A stretch of DNA of 64,000 nt from Armatimonadota bacterium (GTDB lineage: Bacteria; Armatimonadota; UBA5829; DTJY01): contig OY760504.1 of the NCBI GenBank assembly GCA_963663705.1, forward strand, positions 2,711,217 to 2,775,216, written 5' to 3'. Below, piece by piece: positions 311-64,000 of the stretch (positions within the stretch are counted from its first letter, which is position 1; each line of letters opens with the position of its first letter). Under the pieces are notes generated by a model. That model saw only the letters and a list, made by a program, of their open reading frames with translations. It did not search any database and was not told where the DNA came from. Made by a program: the position numbers and the translations under genes.

Positions 311-359
311 CGCATGACTATTATTGAAAATTTGGTCCTATAAGCTTTCTTGTGGGTGA

Positions 360-687: not shown

Positions 688-1827
688 ATGTCACTGATAA
701 GAATCGGCTTCATCGGCGCGGGCTGGATGGGGTCTGTGCAGATGAAGAGAATAACCGAGCGAAACGACGCAGAGATCGTCGCGCTCTATGAGGCCAACCA
801 GGAGCGAGGCAGAGAAGTGCTCACAAACCTCGGCCTCTCCCCCGACATACTCGTAGACAATTACGAAGCGATCATCAACAACTCGGATGTCGATGCTGTC
901 TGGGTAGTGAGCCCGAACGCCTTCCACGCAGGACAGGCCATCGCAGCCATGAGAGCCGGGAAGCACGTCTTCTGCGAGAAACCGGCCGCCACAACCTTTG
1001 CCGACTACTGCGCCGAGATAGAGGCGGAGCGTGCGCACCCCGAGCTCATAACCTACGTAGACTACATACTCTACTTCGACAGCATGGAAGATCACCTTCG
1101 CCGTATGGTCGCAGGCGGCGAGTTCGGGGACGTCACCCAGATACAGGTGAACTACCGCCACCCCATAAATATCTCCGGCGACAAGGTCTGGAAGCTCAAA
1201 AAAGAGATCATGGGCGACGCCATCGGCATGGGAATAAACCACTCCATCTCCGTAATGGTAAACGTCATGAGCTCCCAGGCTAAACCTGCAGCAGTCTATG
1301 CCACCAGTACCCCCGCAAAGGTGCGGGGCTTCGAAGCAGACCCGGTCTGGAACATCATGGTTAAGTTCGACAACGGGGCGACCGGCTTCTGTGCGGGAAA
1401 CATTGACAACGGCAACGGGTATGACGCCTACCACAACATCTTCGGGACAGACGGCGGCTTCGTCTTCGACTCACAGCTTGAGAGGACACACAAAGTGCGC
1501 TACTGGTCCGCCAAGTCCACCGAAGGCAAGTGGGTCTACCCGCTCGATCCCGAAAAGTGCAAAGTGGAGGGACAGGAGGCGCTCATCTGGCCTGCGGACA
1601 CAACCACACCAGACAGCGGAAACGTTGTAGAGCACCAGACCGGCGCATGCGTCGGGCACTTCATAGAGTGCGTGAAGAGCGGGCAGAAGTCGCCGCTTTC
1701 GTTCGTGAACTCGTCGATCATAGCAGAGATCGGCTGGGCAGCGCAGATCTCCGCCAAGACAGGCAGTGAAGTACCTCTTCCGCTCGACTGGGCTGCGGCG
1801 AAGAAGTTTTTCGAGGCACAGCAGTGA
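688..1827 (+). CDS. Gfo/Idh/MocA family NAD(P)-dependent oxidoreductase
   Basis: N-terminal Rossmann motif IGFIGAGWMG; downstream EKP motif (FCEKPAA) typical of the family; 379 aa. Confidence 0.8.
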   Translation: MSLIRIGFIGAGWMGSVQMKRITERNDAEIVALYEANQERGREVLTNLGLSPDILVDNYEAIINNSDVDAVWVVSPNAFHAGQAIAAMRAGKHVFCEKPAATTFADYCAEIEAERAHPELITYVDYILYFDSMEDHLRRMVAGGEFGDVTQIQVNYRHPINISGDKVWKLKKEIMGDAIGMGINHSISVMVNVMSSQAKPAAVYATSTPAKVRGFEADPVWNIMVKFDNGATGFCAGNIDNGNGYDAYHNIFGTDGGFVFDSQLERTHKVRYWSAKSTEGKWVYPLDPEKCKVEGQEALIWPADTTTPDSGNVVEHQTGACVGHFIECVKSGQKSPLSFVNSSIIAEIGWAAQISAKTGSEVPLPLDWAAAKKFFEAQQ

Positions 1828-3113
1828 TTCAGATAAGAAGAACCAACAGCAATTTCGAGAGAGAACCTCTCACCGCACCATTCGGCTTCAAAGGCGGCTA
1901 CCTCTCCGAACTCTGGCAGAGTGTAGCACTCCTGGAGAGCGAGAACGGGCTCAAAGGCCTCGGCCTTGGCACGCAGAGCACACTTTGGTCGGACGCGGGG
2001 ATATTCACAAGCACCGCAGAATCAGCAGGAAACAGCCTGATGTATCTCATGACCGCATACGCGCTGAAACAGGCAGAAGGCATGGAGTTCAACACTCCCA
2101 TCGACCTGCTCGAACGTCTCCTCCCGATAACCTACGAATACGGGCAGAAGATCACAGGGAGGGATGACCTCCGTCTCACATTCGCCTTGAACGCGCTAGT
2201 GGCAGTAGACAACGCCGCCTGGCAGCTCTACGCGGCAGAGGGAGGCATCGCAATTTTCGATGATATGATCCCCGCTGATATCCGCCCTGCGCTCTCGCAT
2301 AGACACAGGGAACTCGCCAGCATCCCGCTCATGAGCTATGGGGTGCCGCTTCCCGGCATAATGCAGGCAGTGGAAGACGGATACTTCTTCCTCAAGATAA
2401 AGATCGGCTCCGACCCGAAGAAGGACGGCGACCGCGATAAGATGCTCGAGTGGGACAAGGCGAGGCTTGAGTCGATCCACAACGCCGTAAAAGACATAGC
2501 AACCCCATACACAGAGCACGGGCATATCCCGTACTACCTCGACGCAAACGGCAGGTACGATAGCAAAGACCGCCTGATGAGGTTTCTGGATCACGCGGAG
2601 CGGATCGGAGCGCTAGAGCGCATAATGATCATGGAAGAGCCGTTCCCGGAAGAGTATAGTGAAGATGTGCGAGACATCCCTGTGCGGCTCGCGGCGGACG
2701 AGAGCGCGCATTCAGATAAGGATGCAGCCGAGCGGATAGAGATGGGCTATGGTGCAATCGCCCTGAAGCCCATCGCGAAGACCATGAGCATGAGCCTCTT
2801 GATCGCAAAGCTCGCGCACGAGAAGGGAATCCCGTGCTTCTGCGCAGACCTCACCGTGAACCCTATACTCGTGGATTGGAACAAGAACGTTGCCGCCCGA
2901 CTCGCGCCGCTCCCGGGGATGAAGATCGGAGTGCTCGAATCGAACGGCCACCAGAACTACGCCCGGTGGGATGAGATGAAGTCATACCACCCATGTGCAG
3001 GGGCATCGTGGATGAACGCAGATAGAGGACTGTTCCATGCAGACTATGATTTCTATGCCCACAGCGGCGGAATCTTTGAGATGAGCGAGCACTATTGGAG
3101 GTTTGGGAAATGA
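1824..3113 (+). CDS. Enolase-superfamily enzyme (mandelate racemase / muconate lactonizing enzyme fold), putative sugar-acid dehydratase or epimerase
   Basis: GTG start overlaps the upstream stop (GTGA). KxK motif (KIKIG), metal ligands DANG, EEP and ADES at the expected spacing; 429 aa. Confidence 0.65.
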   Translation: MIQIRRTNSNFEREPLTAPFGFKGGYLSELWQSVALLESENGLKGLGLGTQSTLWSDAGIFTSTAESAGNSLMYLMTAYALKQAEGMEFNTPIDLLERLLPITYEYGQKITGRDDLRLTFALNALVAVDNAAWQLYAAEGGIAIFDDMIPADIRPALSHRHRELASIPLMSYGVPLPGIMQAVEDGYFFLKIKIGSDPKKDGDRDKMLEWDKARLESIHNAVKDIATPYTEHGHIPYYLDANGRYDSKDRLMRFLDHAERIGALERIMIMEEPFPEEYSEDVRDIPVRLAADESAHSDKDAAERIEMGYGAIALKPIAKTMSMSLLIAKLAHEKGIPCFCADLTVNPILVDWNKNVAARLAPLPGMKIGVLESNGHQNYARWDEMKSYHPCAGASWMNADRGLFHADYDFYAHSGGIFEMSEHYWRFGK

Positions 3114-10194: not shown

Positions 10195-11154
10195 TTATAG
10201 ACCGTACATGAAGTCGAGTATCTTGTCGTCTACGCCGGGGAGACATTCGTGCCCGAAGTCGGGGTAGATCAGCATGTTTTTCTTCGATGTGATTTTGTTG
10301 TAGGCTGCGAATTGCGTGGATGGAGGGCAAATATCGTCTATCAATCCGGTTGTCATCAGCACTTCGGCTTTGATTCGGCTTGCCAGATGTTGATTGTCGA
10401 TATAACCTAGCTTTGTAAATATCTCATCTTTGTGTTCATGTAGGGGATCGGTCATCCTGAAGTACGTGCGCAGTTCCTCGTAAGCGTTTTTGTCCAGATC
10501 CATCTCCCATACACGCAAGTAATCGCAGAGAAACGGCATGAAAGGCGCTGCAAGTTTGATCCTGGGCTCGAGAGCAGCACAGGCGAGCGTGAGTCCGCCT
10601 CCCTGCGAACCGCCTGTCGCTCCTACTCTCGCAGGATCGACTTCCGGCATGCCCATCAGTATCCGAGCTAGTTCGGCGCAGTCCAGAAATACAGAGCGGA
10701 AGAAGAGCTTCTTAGGATCGCCGCTCAATCCACGGATTATGTGGCCTTTATAAGTGTTTCCTGTCACGCCGCCTATGTCTTCCGATAGACCGGCCTGACC
10801 CCGGCAGTCAAGCGCCGCTACGGAAAATCCCTGGCCTACCCAGCTCAGGTAGTTGATCCATTCTCCGCTGTCTCTCGTGTAGCCGTGAAAGAACAGTACT
10901 CCGGGATGAGGCTTGTCTGCTCCCTTGGGGCGGAGATACTTGGCGTGGATGCGCGCCCCGCCGACGCCGGTGAAGTAGAGATGATAGCCCTCTGCAAACG
11001 GATGCTTGTATTCGCTCGGCACCAACTCAACCTTGGGGTCTATGTTTTGCATTTCGGTAAGGCTGTCATCCCAGAACTTGTCGAAATCGGCCGGACGCGG
11101 ATTACGACCTTGATATTCCATCAATTCTTCGAGTGGCATGTCGATAATCGGCAT
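10195..11154 (-). CDS. axe: CE7 acetyl xylan esterase / cephalosporin-C deacetylase family
   Basis: N-terminus MPLEELMEYQGRNPRPADFDKFWDD and the nucleophile elbow GGSQGGGL are hallmarks of CE7 (AXE1) enzymes; 319 aa. Confidence 0.8.
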   Translation of the reverse strand: MPIIDMPLEELMEYQGRNPRPADFDKFWDDSLTEMQNIDPKVELVPSEYKHPFAEGYHLYFTGVGGARIHAKYLRPKGADKPHPGVLFFHGYTRDSGEWINYLSWVGQGFSVAALDCRGQAGLSEDIGGVTGNTYKGHIIRGLSGDPKKLFFRSVFLDCAELARILMGMPEVDPARVGATGGSQGGGLTLACAALEPRIKLAAPFMPFLCDYLRVWEMDLDKNAYEELRTYFRMTDPLHEHKDEIFTKLGYIDNQHLASRIKAEVLMTTGLIDDICPPSTQFAAYNKITSKKNMLIYPDFGHECLPGVDDKILDFMYGL

Positions 11155-11329
11155 TGGATAAGTTCCTCCATCATAATACCTATTGAATAGTAGTAAATAT
11201 TCTTAAACCATTATCGCTCGGTAGCCCGAATTCCTGCCAAATATAGAGCTTTTCTGAAAAATTAGTTACATGTCTATTCGGGGCCTTCTTCGGCGATGAA
11301 TATGGCTACATCAGTCAAAATGCAAGCGA

Positions 11330-11905
11330 AATTCTAGACGCTGTACTGTCCCTCGACGGTGATATTCAGCGGGATTTCTTTCAGCACTTGCAGGCCGGCT
11401 TTGTTGTATAAACTGCGGAAATCGGTAATAGCTGTAAGGGGGATGCTTGGGCTGTTGTACCATTCGCATGGTTACGATGACCATGGCGAACGTGGTCGAT
11501 AAAGGACAGTTGGTATTGGATCCGCGCTAAGTTCAGGATGCTGATTATGCATCCATTCCCACGCTCGACATTTCTTGAATTAGGGATAGCGGGCGGTGCA
11601 GCACTTGGATTGCGTTAGTGAGGTTTACATATGGATGTGTTGGTGCAGTCGGCGAGCCCTTAGTCCGTGAACTCCATTCTCCTCAAAGAACGGGATTACC
11701 CTATGCTCCTTACTCCCCCAGGTGAGATAAAGATGCCCTGTTTCTTCAACTCATTCGATACCCTAATCTGACCGCAGGCCGGTTTCTCAATAGCAAATAC
11801 AAGTACAGCCTCTTCGATGTAACCCTCTACTCGGTTCTTAAGAATCGGCTTCTTTCGGCTGATCTCAAGGAGCGCCATCTCACCGCCGGGCAACGTTTCC
11901 ATGTG
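11330..11905 (-). pseudogene. Degenerate DDE transposase remnant (IS481-like family), with multiple stops and frameshifts
   Basis: The N-terminal HTH segment is intact (MALLEISRKKP...IRVSNELKKQGIFISPGGVRSIG). Downstream frames carry recognisable but broken transposase segments (IQYQLSFIDHV ; LTAITDFRSLYNKAGLQVLKEI). Confidence 0.45.
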
Positions 11906-11959
11906 TTTTTGCCAATTCTATTAACCCGATTTTATTCCGTATTATCTTCTGTTCTGTTG

Positions 11960-12240
11960 TCATCTGACAAAACTTCAGCCTGATCAGGATTGACCGCAAA
12001 TATCCGACGGTCTTAGCAAGATATTACCCTTTACCGTTTGTATTATCCCCATTATAATTGTACATGTTAAGTGTTGATACCTAATCTATGTAGAAATGTT
12101 CACTGAAGAAGCCGCCCGACCGGAAGACATGGATTTCATCTCGATCGTTACCCCGAACTACATGCACTACCCGGTGGCGATCTCATCTCTCGATGCAGGG
12201 CTTTCCGTAGGGTGAGACAAACCGATGACGCTGACACTTT
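11960..12240 (+). pseudogene. Relic duplicate of the 19.5-20.9 kb locus: AraC 3' end, intergenic promoter region, and an internal fragment of a Gfo/Idh/MocA oxidoreductase
   Basis: 11976-12070 matches 19531-19620. Both encode ...PDQD-stop followed by ttagcaagatattaccctttacc. 12130-12216 encodes MDFISIVTPNYMHYPVAISSLDAGLSVG[12 protein letters not shown], matching [37 protein letters not shown] of the 20503..21654 gene. No start codon; there is an internal stop. Confidence 0.55.
12014..12058 (+). promoter_or_regulatory. Operator-like motif TAGCAAGATATTAC followed by a TTTACC-N17-TATAAT promoter (relic copy)
   Basis: Motif at 12014-12027, -35 at 12030-12035, -10 at 12053-12058. Confidence 0.4.
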
Positions 12241-12469
12241 GCGAGGCCAAGGGTGTTCGCAGAATGCAGATTGTCGACAGAAAAAGATATCTTGCCCGTC
12301 GAGCTTATCGTTCGAAAGTGCACAGGTTAGATTGGCTGATATATCGAAGAAAAGGTAATAGTTATGCCACAGATTTGTGGATGGTGTGTGGAGGAGGGAT
12401 GAAAATATGGCATAAGTAAAGTGTCCTGTTTCAAAGGTATTCCACATTTTATAATGAAAGGGCGGTTTT

Positions 12470-13496: not shown

Positions 13497-15539
13497 ATGG
13501 ATCTTAGATGCGAAAAATTGAGCCTTAGTGTAAACGGTCAAGGAATTGTGGAATCCGTACGACTTATCGATAAAGACTACGAGTTTATAACCGGTGCAGC
13601 AGGTTACTCGGCGGTCGAAGATTGCCTGCAGAATTCTATCAGCGGAGACCCTGATGGCGAGACTCCGCAGGCAGCGACCCGCGTAGAGAACGGCTCGATT
13701 TACGTCACGAGGTCATTTGCGAGCGGGCTTGTGATAGAAGATACCTTCTCATCCGATTCCGGTGCGGTCCGGTGGAGAGTGCATGTCTCTACTTCGGAAA
13801 AGACTCCTAGAACTGCGAATCTCTTTCTCGTTCTGCCGGTACTCGGGCAGGACCGGCACGTCTTCGTTACGCACAACGACGCACCGCTCTCGCCGGGGAA
13901 TTTCCGCCATGTGCGCTATGTGTACGGAGGCGATCAGTTCCGAGGCGAGCTGCACAGGGCTGTGGCTCTCCCAGTCGTTACGTTTTACAAGCGCGAGGCG
14001 GACGCCGGACTGACTTGTGCAGTACCCGCGGGCTTGCCTGTGCCTGCCATATGGTATTCGATGTTCCACGAGTCGGATAAGGTAGGCTTCGTGAGTAAAT
14101 TTGTGAACATGCGGCTCTCGGCCAAGCATCCGATCGAAGTTGAGATGCTCATACACGGGCATGGCGGCAACTGGCAGGACGGCTTGTCCTGGTATAGCGA
14201 CCGGTATCACGATTACTTCACGGTCAAGAACGAGGATGTCTACAGGACTGAGGGCGCTATGATCTGTTCGCACGTCCTGCACAGCGAAGATGAAATCAGG
14301 AGATGGAAGGCACAGGGCTTCGCATGGCAGGAACTTCATGCCAACATGCTCTCCTACTACGGAGAATACATGCCGGAGGGCGAGCGATGGGAGACGATCA
14401 ACTCCAAATACCTTGCCAAGAACTTGGACCTGCGGAAGCTCGCCGCTCTCGATCCCGTGGGCGTAGAGTACAACACGCTGACCCAGTGTGCGCCGGATCC
14501 GTATATGAGCAAGAACCGCCTGCGCGAGTACATCGATACTCTGCACAAGAACGGTGTGGCTGCTTTCATCTACTTTAACCCCGTACTCTGCGACAAACAG
14601 ATAGTGGGGAGGTTCGAGTCCGACATAGCTAGAAACGAAGACGGCACACCCTGTGCTAATGGATACTACTTTGGCGTAAGTATGAACCCGGACCCCAATG
14701 GAGGCTGGGGGCGTCATCTGATACAACAGGTCGAGCGCATGATGAGTGAGTTCCCGAACTGTGACGGCATATTCTACGATGAGGTGCATTACCGCCATTA
14801 CGATTTCGCCCACGACGACGGCATCACGATGGTTCACAACAAGCCATGCTCCATGATAGGCTTCGCGATGGCTGATCTGGCAGAGCGTATCTGCGGAATC
14901 GTGCATGCCGCCGGAAAAGTCGTTTGGGCAAACGGCCCGACAAGCCTGGAGGTTGTTAGATACCTGGACGGATGTATGGCCGAGCATAGCAGCACATGGA
15001 TGGGCACGGTGCAGTATTTCTGTCTGGAGAAGCCGATGGTGCTGCTCGCCGGCGGAGACCCTGTCGATAAGCTCTGGGACGGATTCAAAAAGTCATTGGT
15101 CTGCGGTGGGCAGCCGGACGTACTCTGGAAGCTCGATGAGCAGGCAATTTCCGGCGATAACAAGGAGAATCTCTCTCCGAAACCGGCCGACGATCCTGCT
15201 CGACAGGCGCTATGCACGGCGTTCAGACCTCTGCTCGATATGATCAAGGGGCGCAAGTGGGTGCTCCAGCCGAACGTGCTCGAACTACCTGAAGGCGTAG
15301 TCGGCAACTTTTTCGAACTCAGGGACGGCTCTATCGCCATACCTCTGGCTGTGGATCAGCCGCAGAGCAATGTAACGGTGAAGGTGAAGAATACACTTCT
15401 TCCCGAGTATGCAAAGGCTGAGGTAATTACAACGGAGGGCGCTATTGCATCAACTTTGCGTATCGGATCAGGGGATATGTATGCCTCGATAGACATACCT
15501 CTTCTCCAACATGCAGCAGTAATCCGTCTTAACAGCTGA
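13497..15539 (+). CDS. Conserved hypothetical cytoplasmic protein (680 aa), with a paralog at 62001
   Basis: Long ORF with a coding pattern and no signal peptide. It is highly similar to the 62001.. ORF. Conserved segments HGHGGNWQDG, YFNPVLCDK, VWANGPTS. No family assignable by eye. Confidence 0.6.
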   Translation: MDLRCEKLSLSVNGQGIVESVRLIDKDYEFITGAAGYSAVEDCLQNSISGDPDGETPQAATRVENGSIYVTRSFASGLVIEDTFSSDSGAVRWRVHVSTSEKTPRTANLFLVLPVLGQDRHVFVTHNDAPLSPGNFRHVRYVYGGDQFRGELHRAVALPVVTFYKREADAGLTCAVPAGLPVPAIWYSMFHESDKVGFVSKFVNMRLSAKHPIEVEMLIHGHGGNWQDGLSWYSDRYHDYFTVKNEDVYRTEGAMICSHVLHSEDEIRRWKAQGFAWQELHANMLSYYGEYMPEGERWETINSKYLAKNLDLRKLAALDPVGVEYNTLTQCAPDPYMSKNRLREYIDTLHKNGVAAFIYFNPVLCDKQIVGRFESDIARNEDGTPCANGYYFGVSMNPDPNGGWGRHLIQQVERMMSEFPNCDGIFYDEVHYRHYDFAHDDGITMVHNKPCSMIGFAMADLAERICGIVHAAGKVVWANGPTSLEVVRYLDGCMAEHSSTWMGTVQYFCLEKPMVLLAGGDPVDKLWDGFKKSLVCGGQPDVLWKLDEQAISGDNKENLSPKPADDPARQALCTAFRPLLDMIKGRKWVLQPNVLELPEGVVGNFFELRDGSIAIPLAVDQPQSNVTVKVKNTLLPEYAKAEVITTEGAIASTLRIGSGDMYASIDIPLLQHAAVIRLNS

Positions 15540-15862: not shown

Positions 15863-15914
15863 TATTATGCAACAGCGAATCTGTATTTGCAACAAGATCA
15901 GGGGGATTACTAAA

Positions 15915-17189
15915 TTGGGTGATAAACTTGCACTTTTAGGTGGAAAACCGGCTGTAGACAAAGATGTAGAATTCAAAATATGGCCGGAAGTTACCAAAGA
16001 AGACGAAGAGTATGTGCTGGCATCTCTTCATCAGAACAATCATGCCTGGGGGCCCAACTGCATTGCGCTCCAGGATGAGTTTGCCGCATGGAATGGCAAC
16101 AAATTCTGCGCTGCCACAAACAGTGGCACGGCGGCGCTTCATATGGCGATAGCTGCATTTGGCATAGGCCCGGGCGATGAGGTGATTACCACCACACTCT
16201 CATGGACCTCCACTGCCACGTGTGTGATGCATCACAATGCCATCCCTATCTTTGTAGAAGTGGATTGGGATTCTATGCTGATAGATCCCAAAAAGATTGA
16301 AGCAGCCATCACCCCGAGGACCAAGGCCATTCTGCCAGTGCACTACTGGGGTGTGCCGTGCGACATGGACGCAATAATGGCAATTGCAAAGAAGCATGGG
16401 CTATATGTTTTGGAAGACGCGTGCCAGGGCCACGGTGCTACCTACAAGGGTCGGAAGACCGGTACTTTTGGGGAGTGTTCCGCCTTCAGTCTCAACCAGA
16501 ACAAAAACTTCTCCGCGGGTGAGGGCGGTCTATTTGTCACAGAGGATGAAAAACTGTTTGAGGCGGCACGTGCGCTGATGAGCTTTGGCGAGATGCGCGC
16601 TCCTGAATCGAATCGGGACTTCCACTCCTACGGCATGGGCTGGATGTATAGAACCGATGATATTTCAGCGGCATACGCCAGGAGTGCCCTTGCCAAACTG
16701 GATAAGACAAACGCGCAGGCCCGGGCAAATTTCGACCGTCTGCAAAACAGCCTGCAGGGCCTTAAGGGGATCGTACTGCCGTTTGACACCGAAGATCAGA
16801 AGAGTAACGGATATGCATATGTGATAAGGGTAGAACCGGAATCCGCAGGCTGGAACGGTAAAGCTTCGGAATTTCGCGATATCGTGATAAACGCACTTGC
16901 GGCCGAAGGCGTCCCGGTGGCGTCTGCCAGGTGGATGCTTCCCGCACATACGGTGTTTCAGGCGAAGAACGGTTACGGCAAAGGCTGCCCATGGGAGTGC
17001 CAGTACGCCCGGCAGGATATCGACTATTCTCTGGATCAGTATCCCATAACAAACCGCGTGGTGGACACCTGCATTCAGATAGCCATCAACGGGCATCGCC
17101 CCCCGAACGGCGGCGAACAGTTAGATGCGATAGCATCAGGTATCCGCAAAGTATTCGAGAACCTGGATCAGCTTCCGAGCGAAGCATAA
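15915..17189 (+). CDS. DegT/DnrJ/EryC1/StrS family PLP-dependent aminotransferase
   Basis: Family-typical blocks GDEVITTTLSW, AILPVHYWGVPCDMDAIMAIAKKHGLYVLEDACQGHG, SAFSLNQNKNFSAGEGG. TTG at 15915 has a GGGGG RBS and is preferred. The in-frame ATG at 15867 would sit at the predicted transcription start. Confidence 0.75.
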   Translation: MGDKLALLGGKPAVDKDVEFKIWPEVTKEDEEYVLASLHQNNHAWGPNCIALQDEFAAWNGNKFCAATNSGTAALHMAIAAFGIGPGDEVITTTLSWTSTATCVMHHNAIPIFVEVDWDSMLIDPKKIEAAITPRTKAILPVHYWGVPCDMDAIMAIAKKHGLYVLEDACQGHGATYKGRKTGTFGECSAFSLNQNKNFSAGEGGLFVTEDEKLFEAARALMSFGEMRAPESNRDFHSYGMGWMYRTDDISAAYARSALAKLDKTNAQARANFDRLQNSLQGLKGIVLPFDTEDQKSNGYAYVIRVEPESAGWNGKASEFRDIVINALAAEGVPVASARWMLPAHTVFQAKNGYGKGCPWECQYARQDIDYSLDQYPITNRVVDTCIQIAINGHRPPNGGEQLDAIASGIRKVFENLDQLPSEA

Positions 17190-17260
17190 AATATGCAGGC
17201 GGCGGAAGATACTCCTCGAAATCTTTCGCCGCTTACGTGAAAATAATGGGAGAGCACATC

Positions 17261-18556
17261 ATGAAAGTTGGAACCGCATGGGCGGATATCACCCCATCCG
17301 TCCCCATAGACATCGTAGGGCAAATGGTTGTGAGAAAAGGGAAGTACACCCACGACCCGATAACAGTGAATGCCGTAGTCTTTGAGAAAGATGACACAAA
17401 GGTGGCGCTGGTCTCCTGTGATCTCTGTTATATGGGGATTAATGTCATTGATGATGTTCAGACTTTGTGTGAAAAGGAACTAGGGATACCGGCGGCTTCG
17501 GTTATCATCGCCTGCACTCACACGCATCTGGCCCCTGCCACACGCGATACGTTGTATGGAGACGTAAACGAAAATTTTATAAAAACGTACAAAGAATCTG
17601 TGGTAGATATAGTCCGCAGAGCCCTGAAAAATGCAGAAGATGTCGATATCTACGCCGGAGCAGGATGGATCGATCAGATGGGATTCAACCGCCGGGGGAT
17701 TACCAAAGCCGGTCACGCGGAGATGTATTACGGCAGCTGGGAGGCAGACTTCGACAGGGTGGAAGGCCCGCGAGATGGTCAGGTCGGCGTTCTGTTTGCC
17801 CGCAGACCGGATGGTAGCATAAAAGCAGTGGTTACCTCATTCTCTACCCATCCGAATTCTATGGAAGGCGAAAGCTTCTACAGCGCAGATCTGGTAGGCG
17901 CTACAAGAAATTTCTTGCGGCAGAATCTCGGCGAAGATGTGGGCGTAGTCTATCTCACCGGCGCCGCAGGGGATACCGCTCCGAGCAAACTTGATGATAA
18001 CAAGAACGGTGAGATGCCGTGGCGTGGAGAGGAAGGATGGAAACGTTCGGGACTATATCTCGGCAGCGAGATACTAAAAACCATCGCAGGGACGATAAAA
18101 CCGATGCCTGATCCCCTCTTGCGTCTGGAGCAGGAGTCGGTACCCATAGCGATCCGTCCCTGGCCTAATTTGACCTGGATGTCGAACGACACCCTCAGCG
18201 ATGCCTTCCAGGACTTCTATAGTCTGGAGAAAGAACGCTGGCCCGAAGTCATACGCAAGGAAAGCCCAATGAAGGTTCGCATCAACGTTCTGCGCATAGG
18301 GGACGCGAGCATCTGTACAAACCCAGGAGAATTGTTCGTGGACTACGGGCTGCAGATCAAAAAGTCGTCCCCATCAAACATTACGCTCATCTCCGAGCTT
18401 ACGGACGGCAATGTCGGTTATGTTCCTACAGAAGAAGCTTTCCGGCACGGGGGATATGAAACAATGCCTGCAGAAAGCAGCTTACTTGACGAGCCCGCGG
18501 GAGGGATCATCGTACAAACCACCCTGAATCTACTGAACAAAGCCTTTACGGCATAA
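17261..18556 (+). CDS. Neutral/alkaline ceramidase-like N-terminal domain family hydrolase (putative)
   Basis: MKVGTAWADITPSVPIDIVGQMVVRKGKYTHDPITVNAVVFEKDDTKVALVSCDLCYM fits the G-A-x-DITPP...HDPL-A-A...LVSLDL pattern of bacterial ceramidase-like proteins. RBS GGAGAG 6 nt upstream. The listed ORF's 16931 start overlaps the previous gene. Confidence 0.45.
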   Translation: MKVGTAWADITPSVPIDIVGQMVVRKGKYTHDPITVNAVVFEKDDTKVALVSCDLCYMGINVIDDVQTLCEKELGIPAASVIIACTHTHLAPATRDTLYGDVNENFIKTYKESVVDIVRRALKNAEDVDIYAGAGWIDQMGFNRRGITKAGHAEMYYGSWEADFDRVEGPRDGQVGVLFARRPDGSIKAVVTSFSTHPNSMEGESFYSADLVGATRNFLRQNLGEDVGVVYLTGAAGDTAPSKLDDNKNGEMPWRGEEGWKRSGLYLGSEILKTIAGTIKPMPDPLLRLEQESVPIAIRPWPNLTWMSNDTLSDAFQDFYSLEKERWPEVIRKESPMKVRINVLRIGDASICTNPGELFVDYGLQIKKSSPSNITLISELTDGNVGYVPTEEAFRHGGYETMPAESSLLDEPAGGIIVQTTLNLLNKAFTA

Positions 18557-24870: not shown

Positions 24871-26385
24871 GGAAAACCAGCAAATATGATGCAATATCAA
24901 GCCTGCACCGCCTGATATTGCGTCTGCAGCAGACAAATTCACGCAGATTCGGACGATAGTCTCATGTTGGGCCTATCAAAAAAGAATCGGAATCTGTTCG
25001 GCTAGAGTATGGGAGGTATAGTATGAGGAACTCCGCCAATACTCGGACAGCCTCCTAGGGATACCACTGGAATCAATCCGGAATGCGTTACTACCGATGG
25101 GCTGGAATCATACCGCAGGGTGAAATGCCGAACATCGAACCAGCAAGTACATGGAACCATCGAATTGAACAGGATCACGAGGTATTAAATCATGCTATAA
25201 GCCTATGCTTGGTTTTAAGTCGTTCGTGTCTGCAGCCATATTTCGTCCGGCATATGATGTAGTACGTCAGTATTTTTCAACGTCTGTTTAAACGCAAGTC
25301 CTGCCGCCACACCGGCGCAATGGATATACGGAATCGGAATACACGTGTAACAAAAAAGTGAAAGGCCCATGTGCTTATTGATCCACACGGGGATGGGGGA
25401 TTATTTCGCCCCCAGCCCTCTGCGATCCGCCTGAGTGTCTCGTTAAGAGATGCAGTGTTCCACGAAGTATCCTCGAAACACCTATTCGTTGAAAACGCAA
25501 AGGGAAATGTCAGTAAGTGATCTGTTGTTGATGTGAAACTGTGCAAGAGCCCTGAATGAAGATCGGGTGATGCATCCCGGGCTACGGATTAAAGTGTACA
25601 AATCAAGGCGTGTTATTCTATGTCTAGCCTTGTTCGTTTGGTACTATTCATACTCTTCATCAAGTCTGTCCAGATAGTTGTTAAGGATTTGATCGTAGCA
25701 ATTATCAATTACTTCCTCGATACTTGCGAGTCTGCAATCAGCGCAGATCAAGCGGGTAATATGTGGAGGAGCTGACCCTTCATCCAAGAGTCTCCCCCTG
25801 ATATTTGTCGGTACTTGGCGCGGGGCTGATGCACGGACACATGGTGCCACGATTCGCTTTTGGGAAAGCTATTGGGCAATCGGTTGGCATAATCTTTATC
25901 TAGTAACAGGTAATATAGATTATTATTACTGCTTTTACAATACCCTTATGGCTTGTCTGAATTTGATTGATATTCAATCGGGGCGGGTGTATTTCTGCTA
26001 TACTCCAGAACCTGTAATTTATGACAATAGCCATCGTCAGGTAGCCGGTGAAACACATTTGCAGATTGCCGGCCCCGGATCGGGATTCGAGGCCGGCTGT
26101 GAGACGCATGAGGTCACAAAGCTTCTGGTGGATACAGTGTTATATAATGCCTACCTGTTTTGCGATAATGGGCACTGTAAAGGCTTGAATATCGAATGCG
26201 TAGAAGAAGGCGATTGTGTGAGTGTACGGCCGTTAAGCAAATTGCTCTCCAGTCTATTTATCAACAATTCATGCTTGGGTTATTCTTTGAATCTTGATGC
26301 TTGGGCAGGGAAAACGGTAATTTGGCATGGTTTGCCGGATCAGGATTAAGCAGGCTGGAGACAGATTGTGCTAATGTGTTTCGCG

Positions 26386-58300: not shown

Positions 58301-58451
58301 CGTCGTTTCCGTTTCCGCTCGAATCCTTCAGCACCGAGCCAGAACCTTCGCCGAAGGTGTAGTCGGCGATCAGTCCATCGTCAGCTCTCACAGCGCTCAT
58401 TCCCGCGACAAGCATACAGATCAAAATACCCCAAAAGATGCGCACACGCAT
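55320..58451 (-). CDS. Large secreted protein with an N-terminal LamG/concanavalin-A-like lectin domain
   Basis: Signal peptide MRVRIFWGILICMLVAGMSAVRA. LamG-like stretch DGRIQGAEWVKVGNGYALKFDGEDDCVDCGD...LSLEVWM...GKYYD. The remaining about 800 aa are unassigned. Confidence 0.5.
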   Translation of the reverse strand: MRVRIFWGILICMLVAGMSAVRADDGLIADYTFGEGSGSVLKDSSGNGNDGRIQGAEWVKVGNGYALKFDGEDDCVDCGDTPSLNLKDQLSLEVWMRAAAKPSDAAGIVGKYYDNYALTYGREGGAWWYISSGCNGCFGLIEFDKWVHIIGTFDGKVLKLYADGVKIAESPTKIPSANPGKNFYIGKILANPDAPDPAYGVVRPFLGMIGGVKVYNRALLPDEVTAHFRDGLKKFSDPVWFNRVRLIPYAYPDRGQIVVDVDYRGLLPLAGDCRVQVQLAKPGEQTAIRTAELSGLTRKGEKEASFDTAGFQPGTYEARAVFTDDRGVRPEERVSFPYTRSAVKLASPDTRYAPILPKLSKTAKYKFDLSTGGGFDLNIDGTKYPVESTYSYPRGGENRLAVTGASSDGESSWNVSTKRLDDSHYRVVAKGAYYTIERNIQLFQNRVSVKDRITNNTSEDIGIILSNHMGLSRQEFSNSYLSGYKGAGMQEETLSPSVFVGRKDLGIGILPLDDVYVIQSQVFNQNGRIGVSSNKFGLAGKASYTLEWAVYPNSTGDYYDFINAVRRDEGRNGVTVEGQWACWPNGPFDKSGKLPSDEFFENGNIKYFGPGSFAGLADDPELSLEGIDFMNYPKAIQFNRELADKTTKAHPGMECFFHIAHSLYITNKPSETFADSRVIDKSGNQALWPENPPWISQKRLDEGWNAYTYYPTPGNSFHNALMKSADVYMDECGYNCFFLDGYMVGYTGKYTYDRWDNHSVEIDPATKTIKRKMGSVLLLSQPSLVQFVDKVHAKGATVIANNSVITRTIGKQKIIHDKEVVANPDTHLAPTSIALSNMYNIQNDVDIYRDALDKLKWGELMFLYATGDNILKYPSLAQQMFPITFEEIHSGCVKGRERIVTMNSGVYGWPGDNSLHFGYKYDPRGVSVTPDFVTTADRKGVRTMVALKDSESAVVKKIPISMKTDGRVNVSCTQYDDRGIKIQLNGKDRANLTVKTGDFSVKPKAEYTLTVDGVAKRITAGAGGNISFQLDLHGLHDVSLTRL

Positions 58452-58886
58452 ATGCCTTACCCTCCCAAATGCATATCTATCAAGAAGCTTATGTAGTACG
58501 GAGCGTGAATCGCAAGGAGATTGCTGCCCCTGCGCCTCATAGAAACATTGTACCACTTGACACGGCCGTCACCCAAAACACATTGTCGCACCCATTGTGC
58601 CTGTCACCCTGCGGAAGATATCAACGGCATTCCTCACATCGTTTCCACACATGCTGCATTTCTCCGATCTCGGTCTCAAGGGTTCCGGTGCGGTGGAGTA
58701 AAGGGTACAAAACCTCCACCGCACCGAACTATCATATATTACGGCTTTGTAGCCGCACCATCGTACGACGGAGTCATGCTTATGGGAAAAATCCGCCGTT
58801 TGGATGATTGCTTTCGTCCTAAATTCGAATGCTGCCGGCCACCCAGCCGGGCCGGCAGCAGAGAGTCCAACTAAGGAGGGTCAGTT

Positions 58887-59549
58887 CTAGTCCCCCTCAT
58901 AGTTGATCAGGAAGCTTATGTGGTACGGAGCGTGAATCGTTGCGTCGGTACGGGGATCGTTGATAACTCCCTGTGCCTCAGCGAGATTTTTGTACCATTT
59001 GACATGACCGTCACCGAAGACGATATTGTCGCCGCCGCTGTGCCTGTCCCCCTGGCAGTAAGCGAAATTGTTACAGTAGTTTGGCATGTCCAATGTGTTC
59101 GCCCAACGCCACCACGGCTCGTCGTCTTCCAGCATCACTACCCACTGCGCGGGGCATTTGACGGCCGAAAGGGGCACCCCGTCAATAGCCACACCCATGG
59201 GGAACTGTCCGACGCTCTGGTTCGGAAGATAACTCAGGTAGCCGCTCGAATCTGTTGCATAAGGATCGCTCGGGCAGCGTTTTAAGCCCTTGCTTTTTAT
59301 GTACGGTTCGAGAACGACCGCCCACGACGGGCTGGAGCCACCGCAGGGGAAGAACTTCTCGTCGTAATCCTGCAGGTACATCATGGTAGCAGTACCTATC
59401 TGCTTCATGTTGCTCTGACAACTCACTTGCCTTGCCTTCTCTCTGGCCTTGGCAAATACAGGGAAGAGAATTGCTGCCAGGATTGCTATAATAGCAATTA
59501 CGACTAGCAACTCAATGAGAGTGAAACCTTTTCTTCTTGTACACTTCAT
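58887..59549 (-). CDS. DUF1559 / H-X9-DG prepilin-type N-terminal domain protein
   Basis: [41 protein letters not shown]; C-terminal FGDGHVKWY. Confidence 0.85.
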
Positions 59550-60073
59550 TTCTTTTCCTCCATTTCGTAGTGTGAATTACTGTTCCGAAAAACCATTACT
59601 ATGCCGGTTTTTTCTACTCTGCCACCCCCTTTCCCAAAACCTTGCCATATCCTTTGCCGAATCGTTTTGGCAAAAATAGCTAAATAACTTACGTTAAGCG
59701 CCAGATAGGTTCGTAGTCATGCCAGCCGTAAGTTCTTGAAGCTGATTGTAAGCGCTTGCTAGCGCAGAAAGCCCTGTGGCCGTAGTGGCGTCAAAGGAAC
59801 AGATAAGATAGTCAGAGTATAGATCGAGCATGTGTGCTTCATATAACTATTTTATCACAACGCCAACTGGCTGTTCCACCGATTTTCTAGTCATTACATA
59901 TCGCCTGCTGCTGGCTAACCTGCCAGACAGGTGCGTAGCGAGCTAGTAAATCAATTATAGGTTCATATCGCTATATGCACAATAGTCGATATTTAGTTTG
60001 GACATATTTTTTGTTTGTTGACTAATCTTCATTTTTGTCTATAATTTACATAGGTGTTTTGAAGAGAGTTTAT

Positions 60074-60919
60074 ATGGAGAGAAAGACCATGTTGAAAGCA
60101 AGCACGGCTTGGGATGATTTGCTTTTGGAATTTCGAAATCCCACCTTCATCTTCGGAGAAGAGATCCTGCAAGAGCGGATGCACAGTATAGCTGAGCATA
60201 AGCACGATTATTATCAAATGGATTACTTCAATCACGGTCGAGGCAGGATTGCTATTGCAGGCAAAGAGTATATTGTCATGGCGGGCGACATCTTTATCTG
60301 TAACCCAGGAGACAGACATGAGATTTGTTGTTTCAAGTCAGAGCCTGTCGAACGCATTATGGTAAAATTCAATCCATCGGTGGGTGACGCTAAGAATCAT
60401 GTTTTTCCAAACTATATCGGCAACTTGGGTCTACTGCCGCACGACCAGCAGAAGGAATTGGAACACAATCTGCGTCGGGCATGTATAGAGGCAAATAAGG
60501 ATAATGTCTTATTATCCATAGCTCTTTTCACCGTATTCTTCCTGTCCATGATCAGTTACCTCCGAGATGCCTCTCTATTGGTGAAGTCGGGTTGCATCGA
60601 GGGCCGAAACCATCGCATCATGGATTACCTGAAACGAAATTACAACAGACCGATTACTCTTTCAGACCTGTCAAATCTGACCGGCTTGCATCCTCAATAT
60701 CTCTGTCACCAGTTCTCTATGGAGATGGGTATCCCTCCGATGGCTGCACTCACCAGACACAGGATACAGGTCTCCAAGAAACTACTTATCAATACCAATC
60801 TGCCGATCAACGAGATAGCTGTCAGAGTTGGCTGCGAAGATGTGTACAACTTTTCCAAACGATTCAAGATGATAGAGGGTCTTTCTCCACTAAACTGGAG
60901 AAAAAAACATTCCAGTTGA
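60074..60919 (+). CDS. AraC family transcriptional regulator (cupin plus HTH)
   Basis: C-terminal AraC HTH (LTGLHPQYLCHQFSMEMGIPPMAALTRHRIQVSKKLLINTNLPINEIAVRVGCED). GC is lower than in surrounding genes. Confidence 0.75.
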   Translation: MERKTMLKASTAWDDLLLEFRNPTFIFGEEILQERMHSIAEHKHDYYQMDYFNHGRGRIAIAGKEYIVMAGDIFICNPGDRHEICCFKSEPVERIMVKFNPSVGDAKNHVFPNYIGNLGLLPHDQQKELEHNLRRACIEANKDNVLLSIALFTVFFLSMISYLRDASLLVKSGCIEGRNHRIMDYLKRNYNRPITLSDLSNLTGLHPQYLCHQFSMEMGIPPMAALTRHRIQVSKKLLINTNLPINEIAVRVGCEDVYNFSKRFKMIEGLSPLNWRKKHSS

Positions 60920-61339
60920 ACCATTTTATACTCATTGCTGGGATAATCTAACGTTTCTGCTTTGTCTGAGCCGCTACTAGATGAAAGAGCCTTCTCCCCC
61001 GAACTTCGGTTTACATAAACGGCAGCACAAGCTGTTTCCAAGATGTCTCGGCATTCTGTCGATATGCTCGTCTTGAGCGTGCGATGAAATTCACCATCGG
61101 CATATTGTCCATCCTATGGCAACTTTCGTCCGTACTATCACCCCTGAAGAAGACTCCAAACTCAAGGGACTCATGGTTTCTGACGACCTGACAAGCTGGC
61201 ATGCCCACCGCATCCTCCTGTCGGCCAAGGGAAAGACTACTATCCAAATCGCTGAGATGCCTGGAATCTCGGAAGAATAGCAAAGGAGTGACTGATTAAG
61301 CCACCCCTTTGTACACCGCAAATATCCGATTTTGACGCC

Positions 61340-61810
61340 TGATTCTTAATAAAAAAATGGCTCCATAAGAAAGTTTGTGGATAGCGACAGTGTTCCGACA
61401 ACCGTGCGAGTAAATTCGCGGCAACAAAAACACGAAGCCGCCCTGCGCAGACTCAAAAATACCCCAACTGTATCATAGCTGTCCAAAATCCCCTCACCCC
61501 AACCCTCTCCCGAAATCGGGCGAGGGAGAAGTCTTATCGATATGAGTTCGTACTTCACACTTTCCCCATACCAAACAATGTCATTCTGAGCGTAGCGAAT
61601 CTTCTTCCTAATGAGATCCTTTGAGGTTGATGCTTCGGTTGCAGAGTCGACGACGCCGCTGCCGAAGCCTGGCAGACATGTACCGTCCCTCGATATGCCC
61701 TGTGGGCTACTCGGGATAAGCGGCATCTCCCCTCGCCCGAAATCGGGAGAGGGCGAATCAGATTCACCCACAAGAAAGCTAATAGAGCCATTGAATTTAT
61801 GGTGGCCGGT
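61340..61810. repeat. Inverted, expanded copy of the 360-650 element, carrying two GC-rich hairpins
   Basis: Blocks A and B are conserved. There is an about 190-nt insertion between them. Hairpins ccctctcccgaaatcgggcgaggg (61513-61536) and ccctcgcccgaaatcgggagaggg (61727-61750). Confidence 0.7.
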
Positions 61811-62000
61811 CATTATTCAAGGTTGGTGGAACTAGAGAAGTCATGGCAGACAATATTATAACAAGTGTGAGGGATGTTACCTGGGGGTTGCCATCGAGAA
61901 TTTGGAATAAAAGAATCTAAGGAGAATACTAAACTGTTGTCGGTTTCCAAATATGTCAGATTAACGCTATGCATGCTTAATTCGTGGGGAGGAATTATCT

Positions 62001-64000
62001 ATGGAACTTAAAAGTGAAAACCTAAGCATTTCTGTAAGTGAGTTGGGAATTGTGGAGTCTATCCGGCTCATTGATAGAGAATATGAATTTATCTCGGGAG
62101 CTCCGGGTTATTCGGCGGTTGAAGATTGCATGAAGGAACGTATCATCGGGGGGCCAGACTGCGAAACTCCGCAGGTGGAGACTCGAGTGGAAAATAGCGC
62201 GATTTTCATTTCGAGGCTCTTCCCGAGCAGCGGACTGACTATAGAAGATATCTTTTCATGTGATTCAGGAGCCATAAGGTGGAAAGTACGTGTATCTACT
62301 TGCGATGAAGTTCCTCGAACTGCACATGTCTATATGGTTCTGCCTGTATTGGGACAGGACCGCCATGTCTTCGTTGCTCACAATGATGCTCCACTGGCGC
62401 CACAGAATTTTCGCCATCTGCGGTATGTATACGGCGGAGATATGTTCAGAGGCGAACTGCATAGGGCTGTCGCATTACCTGTCGTTACGTTTTATCAGCC
62501 CCAAGCAGATGCGGGTTTGACGTGCGCCGTACCTGCGGGATCGTCTGTGCCGATCATATGGTATTCTATGTTCCACGAGTCAGATAAGGTCGGTTTTGTG
62601 AGCAAGTTTACCAATATGCGGCTCTCTGCCAATTGTCAGATCGAGATTGATATGCTCATACATGGGCATGGTGGAAACTGGCAGGATGGTTTGGCATGGT
62701 ACAGCGAAAGATATCACGACTACTTCACGGTCAAGAACGAGGATGTCTACAAATCAGAGGGAGCTATGCTCTGCTCTCATGTTTTGCACACCGAGGACGA
62801 GATCAAGAGATGGAATCGGCAGGGATTTGCATGGCAGGAATTGCATGCTAACATGCTCTCTTTCTATGGTGAATATATGCCGGAGGAAGATTCTTGGGAG
62901 ACAATCAACTCCCGATACCTGGCTAGAAACCTTGACCTCGGAAAATTGGCTCTCCTTGATCCTCTCGGCGGAGAGTATGACGCGTTAGTTCAGGATGCGC
63001 CCGATCCGTATCTGAGCAAAGACAGGCTGCGCGACTATATCGATCTTCTGCACAAAAACGGCGTGGCTGCTTTCATCTACTTTAACCCCGTTCTCTGCGA
63101 TAAACATATCGTCGGACAATTTGAGTCCGATATCGCCAGAAACTAAGATGGTACTCCTTGCGGTGATGGATACTACTTTGGCGTAAGCATGAACCCTGAT
63201 CCGAACGGATGCTGGGGTCGGTACTTGATCGCACAGGTAGAGCGTATGATGCTCGAGTTCCCGAACTGCGATGGCATATTCTACGATGAGGCACATTACC
63301 GCCACTACGATTTCGCCCATGATGATGGCATCACCATGGTTCATAACAAATCATGCTGTATGCTAGGCTTTCCCATGGTTGAAATGGCCGAGCGTATCTG
63401 CGGAATCGTCCATGCTGCAGGAAAGGTTGTATGGGCTAACGGCCCGACGAGTATTGAGATAGCCAAATATTTGGATGGATTCATGGCCGAGCACAGCAGT
63501 GTATGGATGGGTACAGTTCAGTATTTTGGCTTGGAGAAACCGATGGTGCTGCTTGCCGGTGGAGATTCTATCGATGAACTCTGGAACGGATTCAAAAAAG
63601 CGCTGATATGTGGAGGACAGCCGGACGTACTGTGGCAACTTGATGAGAGCGCCATTCCTGGCGATTCTAAGGAAAGCTTTGCACCTAAACCGGCCGATGA
63701 TCCTGATCGCCAGGCGCTTTGCATGGCTTTCAGGCCTCTACTGGATCTGATTAAAGGACGCAAATGGATACTCCTGCCAAGCCTACTCGAATTACCGGAA
63801 GGCGTAATCGGCAATTGTTTCAAACTTAGGGATGGCTCTATTGCGATACCGTTGGCGGTGGACCGGCCGCTGAGCAATATAACGATAAGGCTCAAGAATA
63901 CGCTTCTGTCTGATCATGCGAAAGCTGAGATTATTACAACGGAGGATGCATTTGCATCGAATGTATCGATTATATCTGGTGATAGATATGCATCGATCGA
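62001..64000 (+). pseudogene. Paralog of 13497..15539 interrupted by an in-frame TAA at 63144-63146; 3' end lies beyond the window
   Basis: DIARN-TAA-DGTPCGDGYYFGVSMN here against DIARNEDGTPCANGYYFGVSMN in the paralog. Homology continues in the same frame to the window end. Confidence 0.55.

What the first reader, a model, noticed from the sequence alone, without database searches (positions are those of the whole stretch)
63100..63200. Single in-frame TAA in the second paralog (GAA to TAA) with intact downstream homology
At 63144-63146 the codon corresponding to Glu in DIARNEDGTPC is TAA. The frame and the similarity continue unchanged to the window edge. This is a very recent pseudogenisation, a sequencing error, or a split gene whose two halves are still expressed.
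Basis: seen in the sequence. Interest (0 to 1): 0.5.

Follow-up and report, generated by a model that had tools for sequence, protein, structure and literature searches.

The report
Real nonsense mutation in duplicated glycosidase-like gene
One of two old copies of an uncharacterised sugar-cleaving-enzyme-like gene carries a single genuine premature stop codon, seen in three separate assemblies; this is an ordinary, very young pseudogene, not a sequencing error or a deliberately split gene.

Summary
ORF 62001-63146 (+) ends in TAA at 63144-63146. The intact paralog (13497-15539, 680 aa) has GAA (Glu) at the aligned codon. The same frame stays open for all 284 remaining codons of the window, at 78.5% amino-acid identity.

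The T is not a sequencing error. An ENA contig (L087) and a short-read Logan contig (L089, the same contig in 3 samples) match the window without a single substitution and both carry the TAA.

TAA is a normal terminator in this genome. No family member in 82 related loci has a stop there.

The stop lies in a loop of a predicted (beta/alpha)8 barrel, after strand 3. All 23 family-invariant residues of the C-terminal part are lost.

The first in-frame restart is ATG 63189, a conserved family Met, and it has no Shine-Dalgarno sequence. No RNA structure, suppressor tRNA or recoding signal was found.

dN/dS between the paralogs is about 0.09 upstream and 0.08 downstream, with dS about 1.5. There is no second lesion and no significant rate acceleration, so the lesion is young: under about 0.1 substitutions per site of neutral time.

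Verdict: a real, recent nonsense pseudogene, or a loss-of-function allele, of a redundant paralog. Low interest.

The parts
62001..63143 (+). 5' part of paralog 2 (codons 1-381): N-terminal beta-sandwich plus roughly the first three strands of the (beta/alpha)8 barrel
   Evidence: ORF list and translation. 76.6% aa identity to paralog 1. Domain layout taken from the AF2 model of paralog 1.
61986..61993 (+). Shine-Dalgarno GGGGAGGA of paralog 2, in front of ATG 62001
   Evidence: Sequence. Anti-SD duplex of -11.4 kcal/mol, among the strongest in the window.
63144..63146 (+). Premature in-frame TAA, codon 382, aligned with GAA/Glu of paralog 1
   Evidence: Also present in L087 (4715-4717) and L089 (423-425).
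63147..64000 (+). 3' part of paralog 2 (codons 383-666 inside the window): still an open frame, covering barrel strands 4-8 and the C-terminal beta-sandwich. It continues 46 nt beyond the window to a TAA.
   Evidence: No stop in frame. 78.5% aa identity to paralog 1. 22 of 23 family-invariant residues retained. 3' end read from L087 and L089.
63189..63191 (+). First in-frame start codon after the stop (Met of the conserved MNPDP motif); not a credible independent start
   Evidence: SD duplex of only -3.1 kcal/mol. This Met is nearly invariant in the family. A gene caller used it on L089 for a 285-aa product.
13497..15539 (+). Intact paralog 1 (680 aa), used as the reference copy
   Evidence: AF2 model with pLDDT 84 and pTM 0.87.
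14637..14639 (+). GAA (Glu381) of paralog 1, homologous to the TAA
   Evidence: Codon alignment.
60089..60919 (+). AraC-family regulator upstream of paralog 2 (context only). Its product was the handle that retrieved contig L087.
   Evidence: Pfam HTH_18 and AraC_binding. Exact look-up.

Best explanation
A genuine G-to-T transversion turned Glu codon 382 (GAA) of the second copy of a glycoside-hydrolase-like gene into the ochre stop TAA. Translation from the strong SD and ATG at 62001 ends at 63146. The 381-residue product has the N-terminal beta-sandwich and only about three of the eight barrel strands, and it lacks every conserved C-terminal residue (MNPDP, DGIFxD, DFAHDDGITM, NGP, MAE), so it should be catalytically dead. 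The 3' 300 codons are now untranslated, or translated only in traces. The lesion is evolutionarily very young, because nothing else in the gene has decayed. The loss is plausibly tolerated because the intact paralog 1 (77% identical) remains in the genome. Shown here: the stop itself, that it is real in three assemblies, that TAA terminates genes in this genome, that there is no restart signal, and that the rest of the frame is intact. Inferred: loss of activity, tolerance through redundancy, and GAA as the ancestral codon.
For: 1. Anatomy of the stop.
2. The same T is in L087 (ENA ERZ21878447 ctg36551l: 0 mismatches and 13 single-base indels over 5572 nt) and in L089 (Logan ERR12015701_197603: 100% over 1279 nt, the same contig in 3 samples).
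3. Intact 681-aa versions with E, Q, K or Y at position 382 are absent from a collection of about 15 billion proteins, while the 381-aa, 266-aa and 285-aa fragments are present.
4. TAA ends 18 of 51 long ORFs. The AXE1 gene 10195-11154 ends at TAA exactly at the end of its Pfam profile.
5. NG86 omega is 0.095 upstream and 0.079 downstream, with dS about 1.5.
6. The relative-rate tests against four outgroups are mostly non-significant.
7. There is no second stop or frameshift, which bounds neutral time at under about 0.10 substitutions per site.
8. The AF2 model places residue 381 in a loop between helix 370-376 and strand 393-396 of the barrel. 23 invariant columns lie downstream of it.
9. The restart ATG 63189 lacks an SD.
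10. The local RNA fold has z = -0.58.
11. None of 83 HSPs in 82 related loci has an in-frame stop, and 79 span the site unbroken.
Against: No expression or proteomic data are available, so residual function cannot be excluded.

The downstream frame is perfectly preserved. That fits a young pseudogene, but it is also what a still-functional gene would show.

The stop falls in a poorly conserved, low-pLDDT surface loop, which is the kind of place where a protein split is most tolerable.

The three assemblies may all derive from one culture or site, so they show that the base is real but not that it is fixed in the species. There are weak hints of acceleration in the 3' half of paralog 2. At positions invariant in the four outgroups downstream of the stop it departs at 6 sites against 1 for paralog 1, and one of four single-outgroup tests gives 4 against 18 (p = 0.004). 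A family-invariant Pro is Ser in paralog 2. Most tests are not significant. These hints would point to pseudogene decay, not against it.
Confidence: 0.85

Rival explanations
1. Sequencing or assembly error: the true base at 63144 is G and the gene is intact.
For: A single-base substitution in an otherwise perfect gene is what an error would look like. The collection holds no sufficiently close relative to compare with: the best hits are 53% and 34% identical.
Against: T is present in three assemblies with different error profiles: the 3.78-Mb source contig, L087 (indel-rich, 0 substitutions) and L089 (short-read Logan contig, in 3 samples). Logan contigs match the window at 100% over about 9.3 kb of unique window sequence. 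The paralogs are only about 76% identical at the DNA level, so paralog collapse is implausible. No intact version is on record.
Confidence: 0.02
2. Functional split gene: the 381-aa N-fragment and a separately initiated C-fragment are both made and assemble into an active two-piece barrel.
For: The stop lies in a variable surface loop with pLDDT about 65. The downstream frame is fully intact, with 22 of 23 invariant residues kept. An in-frame ATG lies 42 nt after the stop, within range for termination-reinitiation. Gene callers do call a 285-aa or 266-aa C-terminal product.
Against: ATG 63189 is an ancestral conserved Met, not a new start. It has no SD (-3.1 kcal/mol). It removes 15 residues including most of strand 4. 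No non-canonical start lies between the stop and that ATG. No other family member is split here. There is no sign of adaptation to a split.
Confidence: 0.05
3. Stop-codon read-through or recoding: UAA is decoded at useful frequency (by a suppressor tRNA, programmed read-through or a reassigned code), giving full-length enzyme.
For: Frame and homology continue in frame 0 directly after the stop, so read-through alone would restore the protein.
Against: By established knowledge, UAA is not the codon used by the known bacterial recoding systems: Sec uses UGA and Pyl uses UAG. TAA is a regular terminator here, and the AXE1 gene ends at the end of its Pfam profile. There is no tRNA in the window. 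The local RNA shows no exceptional structure, z = -0.58. There is no Rfam hit. The stop does not recur in homologues.
Confidence: 0.03
4. The truncated N-terminal product has a function of its own, for example as a carbohydrate-binding beta-sandwich protein, so the stop is adaptive rather than degenerative.
For: The N-terminal 222 residues form a complete beta-sandwich domain in the model, and the gene keeps a strong SD.
Against: The fragment also carries about 160 residues of an incomplete barrel, which would be expected to misfold. No homologue of that length exists among the 14 database relatives or the 82 loci. Nothing indicates selection for truncation.
Confidence: 0.03

Closest known systems
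Young bacterial pseudogenes created by a single nonsense substitution in a redundant paralog
   Same: There is one in-frame stop relative to intact homologues, the rest of the ORF is undamaged, the signature of long-term purifying selection is still visible, and an intact paralog remains in the same genome.
   Different: Nothing substantive. The only particular point is that the gene family itself is uncharacterised.
Naturally split (two-ORF) enzymes and fragment-complementing (beta/alpha)8 barrels
   Same: The break lies in a surface loop of a (beta/alpha)8 barrel, and both parts remain open reading frames.
   Different: There is no start codon or RBS at the break. The nearest start deletes 15 residues, including strand 4. 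The split is not conserved in any relative.
Programmed stop-codon recoding (selenocysteine at UGA with SECIS, pyrrolysine at UAG, reassigned-stop genetic codes)
   Same: An in-frame stop is followed by continued homology in the same frame.
   Different: The codon is UAA. There is no structured element, TAA is used as an ordinary terminator across the window, and the site is not shared by homologues.
GH129 / GH36 / GH66 / GH101-type glycoside hydrolases (fold neighbours of the encoded protein)
   Same: The predicted three-domain layout is an N-terminal beta-sandwich, a (beta/alpha)8 barrel and a C-terminal beta-sandwich. Foldseek E-values are 2e-18 to 1e-13 with TM about 0.5-0.58.
   Different: Sequence identity is about 10%. 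No hit passes the thresholds in Pfam or NCBIfam, and there is no sequence hit in the PDB. The catalytic residues have not been mapped.

Membership tests
Nonsense-mutation pseudogene | Premature in-frame stop relative to full-length homologues | tested here: met
   TAA at codon 382 of 681. Paralog 1 and the 14 database homologues reach 552-1027 aa, and all 14 continue through this position.
Nonsense-mutation pseudogene | The stop codon is a true terminator in this organism's genetic code | tested here: met
   18 of 51 long ORFs end in TAA. The AXE1 gene ends at TAA at position 318 of 321 of its Pfam profile.
Nonsense-mutation pseudogene | The lesion is real in the DNA, not an assembly artefact | tested here: met
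   An identical TAA is in L087 (ENA) and L089 (Logan, 3 samples), with 0 substitutions against the window.
Nonsense-mutation pseudogene | The truncated product lacks parts essential for function | tested here: met
   The stop comes after about strand 3 of the barrel, and 23 invariant columns lie downstream. That these residues are catalytic is inferred, not shown.
Nonsense-mutation pseudogene | Relaxed selection or further decay after the lesion | tested here: inconclusive
   There is no second lesion. omega is 0.079 downstream against 0.095 upstream. Most relative-rate tests are non-significant, with a slight excess of paralog-2 changes downstream and Pro to Ser at one invariant site. This fits a very young lesion.
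Nonsense-mutation pseudogene | Loss of expression or activity | not testable with these tools
   Needs transcript, proteome or enzyme data.
Functional split gene | Downstream ORF has its own start codon and ribosome-binding site at the break | tested here: not met
   The first in-frame start is ATG 63189, 42 nt after the stop, with an SD duplex of -3.1 kcal/mol against -11.4 for the gene's own start.
Functional split gene | The split is conserved in relatives | tested here: not met
   None of 83 HSPs in 82 loci has a stop, and 79 span residues 370-395 unbroken. No relative closer than 53% identity is available.
Programmed stop-codon recoding | Codon type and cis element of a known system (UGA with SECIS, or UAG with PYLIS), or a reassigned code | tested here: not met
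   The codon is UAA. Fold z = -0.58. No Rfam family is hit. TAA terminates other genes.
Programmed stop-codon recoding | Cognate suppressor tRNA in the genome | not testable with these tools
   There is no tRNA in the 64-kb window.
GH129/GH36-like glycoside hydrolases (the protein family) | (beta/alpha)8 catalytic barrel flanked by N- and C-terminal beta-sandwich domains | tested here: met
   AF2 model with pLDDT 84 and pTM 0.87. Foldseek against 5opq gives E 2.3e-18 and TM 0.57, with further matches to GH36, GH66 and GH101.
GH129/GH36-like glycoside hydrolases (the protein family) | Sequence membership in a curated family | tested here: not met
   Only sub-threshold GHL6 (19 bits against a cut-off of 35), GH66 and GH29 matches. 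There are no NCBIfam or PDB sequence hits.
GH129/GH36-like glycoside hydrolases (the protein family) | Catalytic nucleophile and acid/base carboxylates at the ends of barrel strands | tested here: inconclusive
   Invariant D428, D436, D441, E485 and D491 are candidates, but no residue-level structural superposition was available.

The most novel reading that the evidence does not exclude
The interrupted gene may still yield active enzyme. One route is termination-reinitiation at ATG 63189, followed by non-covalent assembly of the two barrel fragments. The other is low-level UAA read-through. Either would make it a naturally occurring two-piece, or leaky, member of an uncharacterised GH129-like glycosidase family.
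Probability: 0.04. Interest if true: 0.45.

Novelty: new member of a known kind. Interest (0 to 1): 0.12.

Why it matters
It matters little beyond annotation. The 381-aa ORF and the 266/285-aa ORF called on this locus should be merged and flagged as one pseudogene, not kept as separate hypothetical proteins.

The case is a clean example of a very young pseudogene, with one lesion and no other decay, in a genome that keeps an intact paralog.

The more useful by-product is the gene family. It is rare, with 14 hits among 5.8 billion proteins, and uncharacterised. It has a GH129/GH36-like fold and sits next to a GFO/IDH/MocA dehydrogenase and an MR/MLE-type enzyme. That family could deserve biochemical attention independently of the stop codon.

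Tried and rejected
1. Exact look-ups of the 381-aa ORF, of paralog 1 and of the DUF1559 neighbour found nothing. The source contig appears to be withheld from that tool. A first guess at the AraC start also failed.
2. The homologue search returned nothing closer than 53% identity. The scans of genome contigs and metagenome contigs found no orthologue of paralog 2; the best hits were 53% and 34%. A dN/dS estimate restricted to the time since the lesion was therefore impossible.
The work-around was listing of cluster members on reconstructed sequences, followed by a look-up of P0028.
4. No flank homology was found between the two paralog loci inside the window. The duplication of neighbouring genes became visible only beyond the window end, through L087.
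5. The idea that ORF 61116-61280 is an IS630-type HTH remnant rests on memory only. Pfam and NCBIfam gave no hit.
6. Rfam searches of the window and of 60920-62000 found nothing.
7. The promoter and terminator scan was at chance level.
8. A literature search for the run and assembly accessions found nothing.
9. Paralog collapse or gene conversion as the source of the T was considered and rejected, because the copies are only about 76% identical in DNA and paralog 1 has G at that position.

Full report
OBSERVATION

The window holds an ORF at 62001-63146 (+, 381 aa) that ends in TAA at 63144-63146. A tblastn of the read-through translation against the window finds one paralog, 13497-15539 (+, 680 aa, intact).

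In a codon-aware alignment the TAA pairs with GAA (Glu) at 14637-14639, inside DIARN-E-DGTPC. The flanking codons differ only synonymously.

After the stop the same frame stays open for all 284 remaining codons. The other two frames of that stretch carry 13 and 22 stops, and none of 20000 shuffles gave an open frame. Amino-acid identity to paralog 1 is 76.6% before and 78.5% after the stop.

IS THE BASE REAL?

The source is a 3,780,622-bp NCBI/ENA contig, on which the 381-aa product is on record.

An exact look-up of the neighbouring AraC regulator (60089-60916) retrieved ENA contig ERZ21878447 ctg36551l (L087). It aligns to window 58441-64000 with 0 substitutions and 13 single-base indels, so it is a separate and noisier assembly. 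It carries the TAA.

I then rebuilt the full protein from the window plus the L087 tail and queried exact sequences. Intact 681-aa versions with E, Q, K or Y at position 382 are not in the collection of about 15 billion proteins. A 285-aa product starting at ATG 63189 is on record in Logan.

Its contig (L089, ERR12015701_197603, 1540 nt, the same contig in 3 samples) is 100% identical to window 62722-64000 and has TAA at 423-425. Other Logan contigs match the window at 100% elsewhere.

A sequencing error is thus essentially excluded. Whether the allele is fixed in the population cannot be told from consensus contigs.

IS TAA A STOP HERE?

Yes. 18 of 51 long ORFs end in TAA. The acetyl-xylan-esterase gene 10195-11154 ends at TAA exactly where its Pfam profile ends.

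There is no tRNA in the window and no Rfam hit. The RNA around the stop folds no better than shuffles, z = -0.58. Among 82 related loci, none of 83 HSPs contains an in-frame stop and 79 run unbroken through the site.

By established knowledge, the known bacterial recoding systems use UGA (Sec) or UAG (Pyl), not UAA.

WHAT THE GENE IS

The family is rare and uncharacterised. There are only 14 hits among 5.8 billion proteins, the best at 53% identity. They are 552-1027 aa long, and four of them are fused to PF06439. No Pfam, NCBIfam or PDB sequence match passes thresholds.

An AlphaFold2 model of paralog 1 (pLDDT 84, pTM 0.87) shows three domains:
- an N-terminal beta-sandwich, residues 1-222
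- a (beta/alpha)8 barrel, about residues 226-582
- a C-terminal beta-sandwich, residues 600-680

Foldseek's best PDB neighbours are GH129 (5opq, E 2e-18, TM 0.57; NagBb 5wzn), GH36, GH66, GH101 and GH31.

Residue 381 lies in a variable loop of lower confidence, between helix 370-376 and strand 393-396. That places it after about the third barrel strand.

There are 12 family-invariant columns upstream of the stop and 23 downstream (N397, P400, D428, D436, H439, D441, N479, E485, D491 and others). Paralog 2 keeps 22 of the 23 downstream ones. The 381-aa product therefore lacks most of the barrel. That this abolishes activity is inferred.

HOW OLD IS THE LESION?

NG86 estimates between the paralogs give omega 0.095 upstream and 0.079 downstream, with dS about 1.5, which is saturated. 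Both halves were therefore under strong purifying selection for nearly all of their history.

Relative-rate tests with four outgroups (P0001-P0004) show symmetric change upstream. Downstream there is only a weak excess of paralog-2 changes:
- With at least 3 of 4 outgroups agreeing, the downstream counts are 5 changes in paralog 1 against 8 in paralog 2.
- At positions invariant in all four outgroups, paralog 2 departs at 6 sites against 1 for paralog 1.
- One single-outgroup test (P0002) gives 4 against 18, p = 0.004.
- Most of the tests are not significant.
- One family-invariant Pro (in NKPC) is Ser in paralog 2.

About 3.7% of possible substitutions in the downstream 284 codons would create a stop. 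The absence of any second stop bounds neutral drift to under about 0.10 substitutions per site at 95%, which is a small fraction of the divergence between the paralogs. The lesion is young.

SPLIT-GENE TEST

The first in-frame start after the stop is ATG 63189, 42 nt downstream. No in-frame GTG or TTG comes before it, and none of the intervening codons is an alternative start.

Its upstream region pairs with the anti-SD at only -3.1 kcal/mol. The gene's own start scores -11.4, and well-supported starts in the window range from about -0.7 to -11.8, with roughly half at -6 or stronger.

This ATG is the nearly invariant Met of the MNPDP motif, present in all relatives. It is therefore not a newly evolved start. 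Using it would delete 15 residues, including most of strand 4.

Gene callers do emit 285-aa or 266-aa C-terminal 'proteins'. That is a mechanical consequence of the open frame.

CONTEXT

L087 and L089 give the missing 3' end (...DRYASIDIPLIKHGAVIRLYS, then TAA; 681 codons).

Downstream of paralog 2 lie intact GFO/IDH/MocA (379 aa) and MR/MLE (429 aa) genes. They are 86% and 84% identical to window genes 688-1827 and 1824-3113, with omega 0.08 and 0.05 and dS 1.1-1.9. The paralogy therefore extends to a three-gene module, and only the glycosidase-like member of locus B is broken.

The surrounding window is rich in carbohydrate-active genes: GH39, GH123, CBM9, AXE1, LamG, AraC regulators and DUF1559/prepilin-type proteins.

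CONCLUSION

This is a real and recent G-to-T nonsense mutation that inactivates one of two old paralogs: an ordinary young pseudogene or loss-of-function allele.

Its 'sequencing error' option is refuted by independent assemblies. Its 'split gene' option has no support.

Residual possibilities (reinitiation with fragment complementation, leaky read-through, a functional N-fragment) together get about 10% and need expression data to close.

Noticed in passing
window 61359-61785 (+) and 338-641 (-): A repeated element of about 300-430 nt occurs in inverted orientation at both ends of the window. The segments are 95% (95 nt) and 81% (182 nt, with indels) identical, which is more alike than the neighbouring paralogous genes (about 76-80% nt). 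Its ends resemble imperfect terminal inverted repeats (CTATAAGAAAGTTTGTGG ... CCACAAGAAAGCTTATAG). It has an internal 28-nt hairpin-like sub-repeat at 61503-61530 and 61730-61757. There is no Rfam hit. It is possibly a MITE-like mobile element or a conserved regulatory or ncRNA element upstream of the paralogous modules. Short-read contig L088 ends at 61305, 54 nt before the element.
   Followed up: partly
L087 5791-8216 (beyond the window end) compared with window 688-3113: Paralog 2 is followed by intact GFO/IDH/MocA (379 aa) and MR/MLE (429 aa) genes, 86% and 84% aa identical to the first two genes of the window. The two loci thus share a three-gene set of glycosidase-like gene, dehydrogenase and MR/MLE enzyme, although at the first locus paralog 1 lies about 10 kb from the other two. 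From memory, untested: a glycosidase with a GH129-like fold next to a dehydrogenase and a cycloisomerase recalls anhydro-sugar (3,6-anhydrogalactose) catabolic clusters.
   Followed up: partly
window 13497-15539 and 62001-64000: The encoded family is very rare (14 hits in 5.8 billion proteins) and has no Pfam, NCBIfam or PDB sequence match. A confident AF2 model nevertheless shows a GH129/GH36-like three-domain glycosidase fold. It may be an undescribed glycoside-hydrolase family. Some members are fused to a 3-keto-disaccharide-hydrolase-like domain (PF06439).
   Followed up: partly
window 61116-61280 (+): A 54-aa ORF (MATFVRTITPEEDSKLKGLM...ILLSAKGKTTIQIAEMPGISEE) looks from memory like the N-terminal HTH of an IS630-type transposase, cut short. 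Pfam and NCBIfam gave no hit, so this is unconfirmed.
   Followed up: partly
L020 1487-2293 and L021 363-1169: Two metagenome contigs carry a 268-aa ORF that matches only the C-terminal part of the family (from about residue 428, 42% identity). In L020 the upstream DNA is unrelated and AT-rich. This is a truncated family member elsewhere, at a different break point.
   Followed up: partly
L057 1049-2592: A metagenomic family member has its match split into two HSPs in different frames at residues 285/286. This is a likely frameshift, either an assembly error or another pseudogene.
   Followed up: no
L087 (ENA ERZ21878447 ctg36551l) compared with window 58441-64000: This public contig differs from the window by 13 single-base indels (12 insertions and 1 deletion) and no substitutions. 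The deletion at window 62351 further splits paralog 2 into 172-aa and 192-aa calls. These are assembly noise, not biology.
   Followed up: yes
window 15867-17189 and 16931-18556 (+): Two long same-strand ORFs, a DegT-type aminotransferase and a ceramidase-like protein, overlap by 259 nt in the mechanical ORF list. The ceramidase Pfam match begins only at residue 113, so the overlap is probably an over-extended start rather than a real feature.
   Followed up: no
window 11155-12469 and 24884-25947: Two stretches of more than 1 kb have no long ORF in an otherwise densely coding window. They were not examined for decayed genes or RNAs beyond the window-wide Rfam scan, which found nothing.
   Followed up: no
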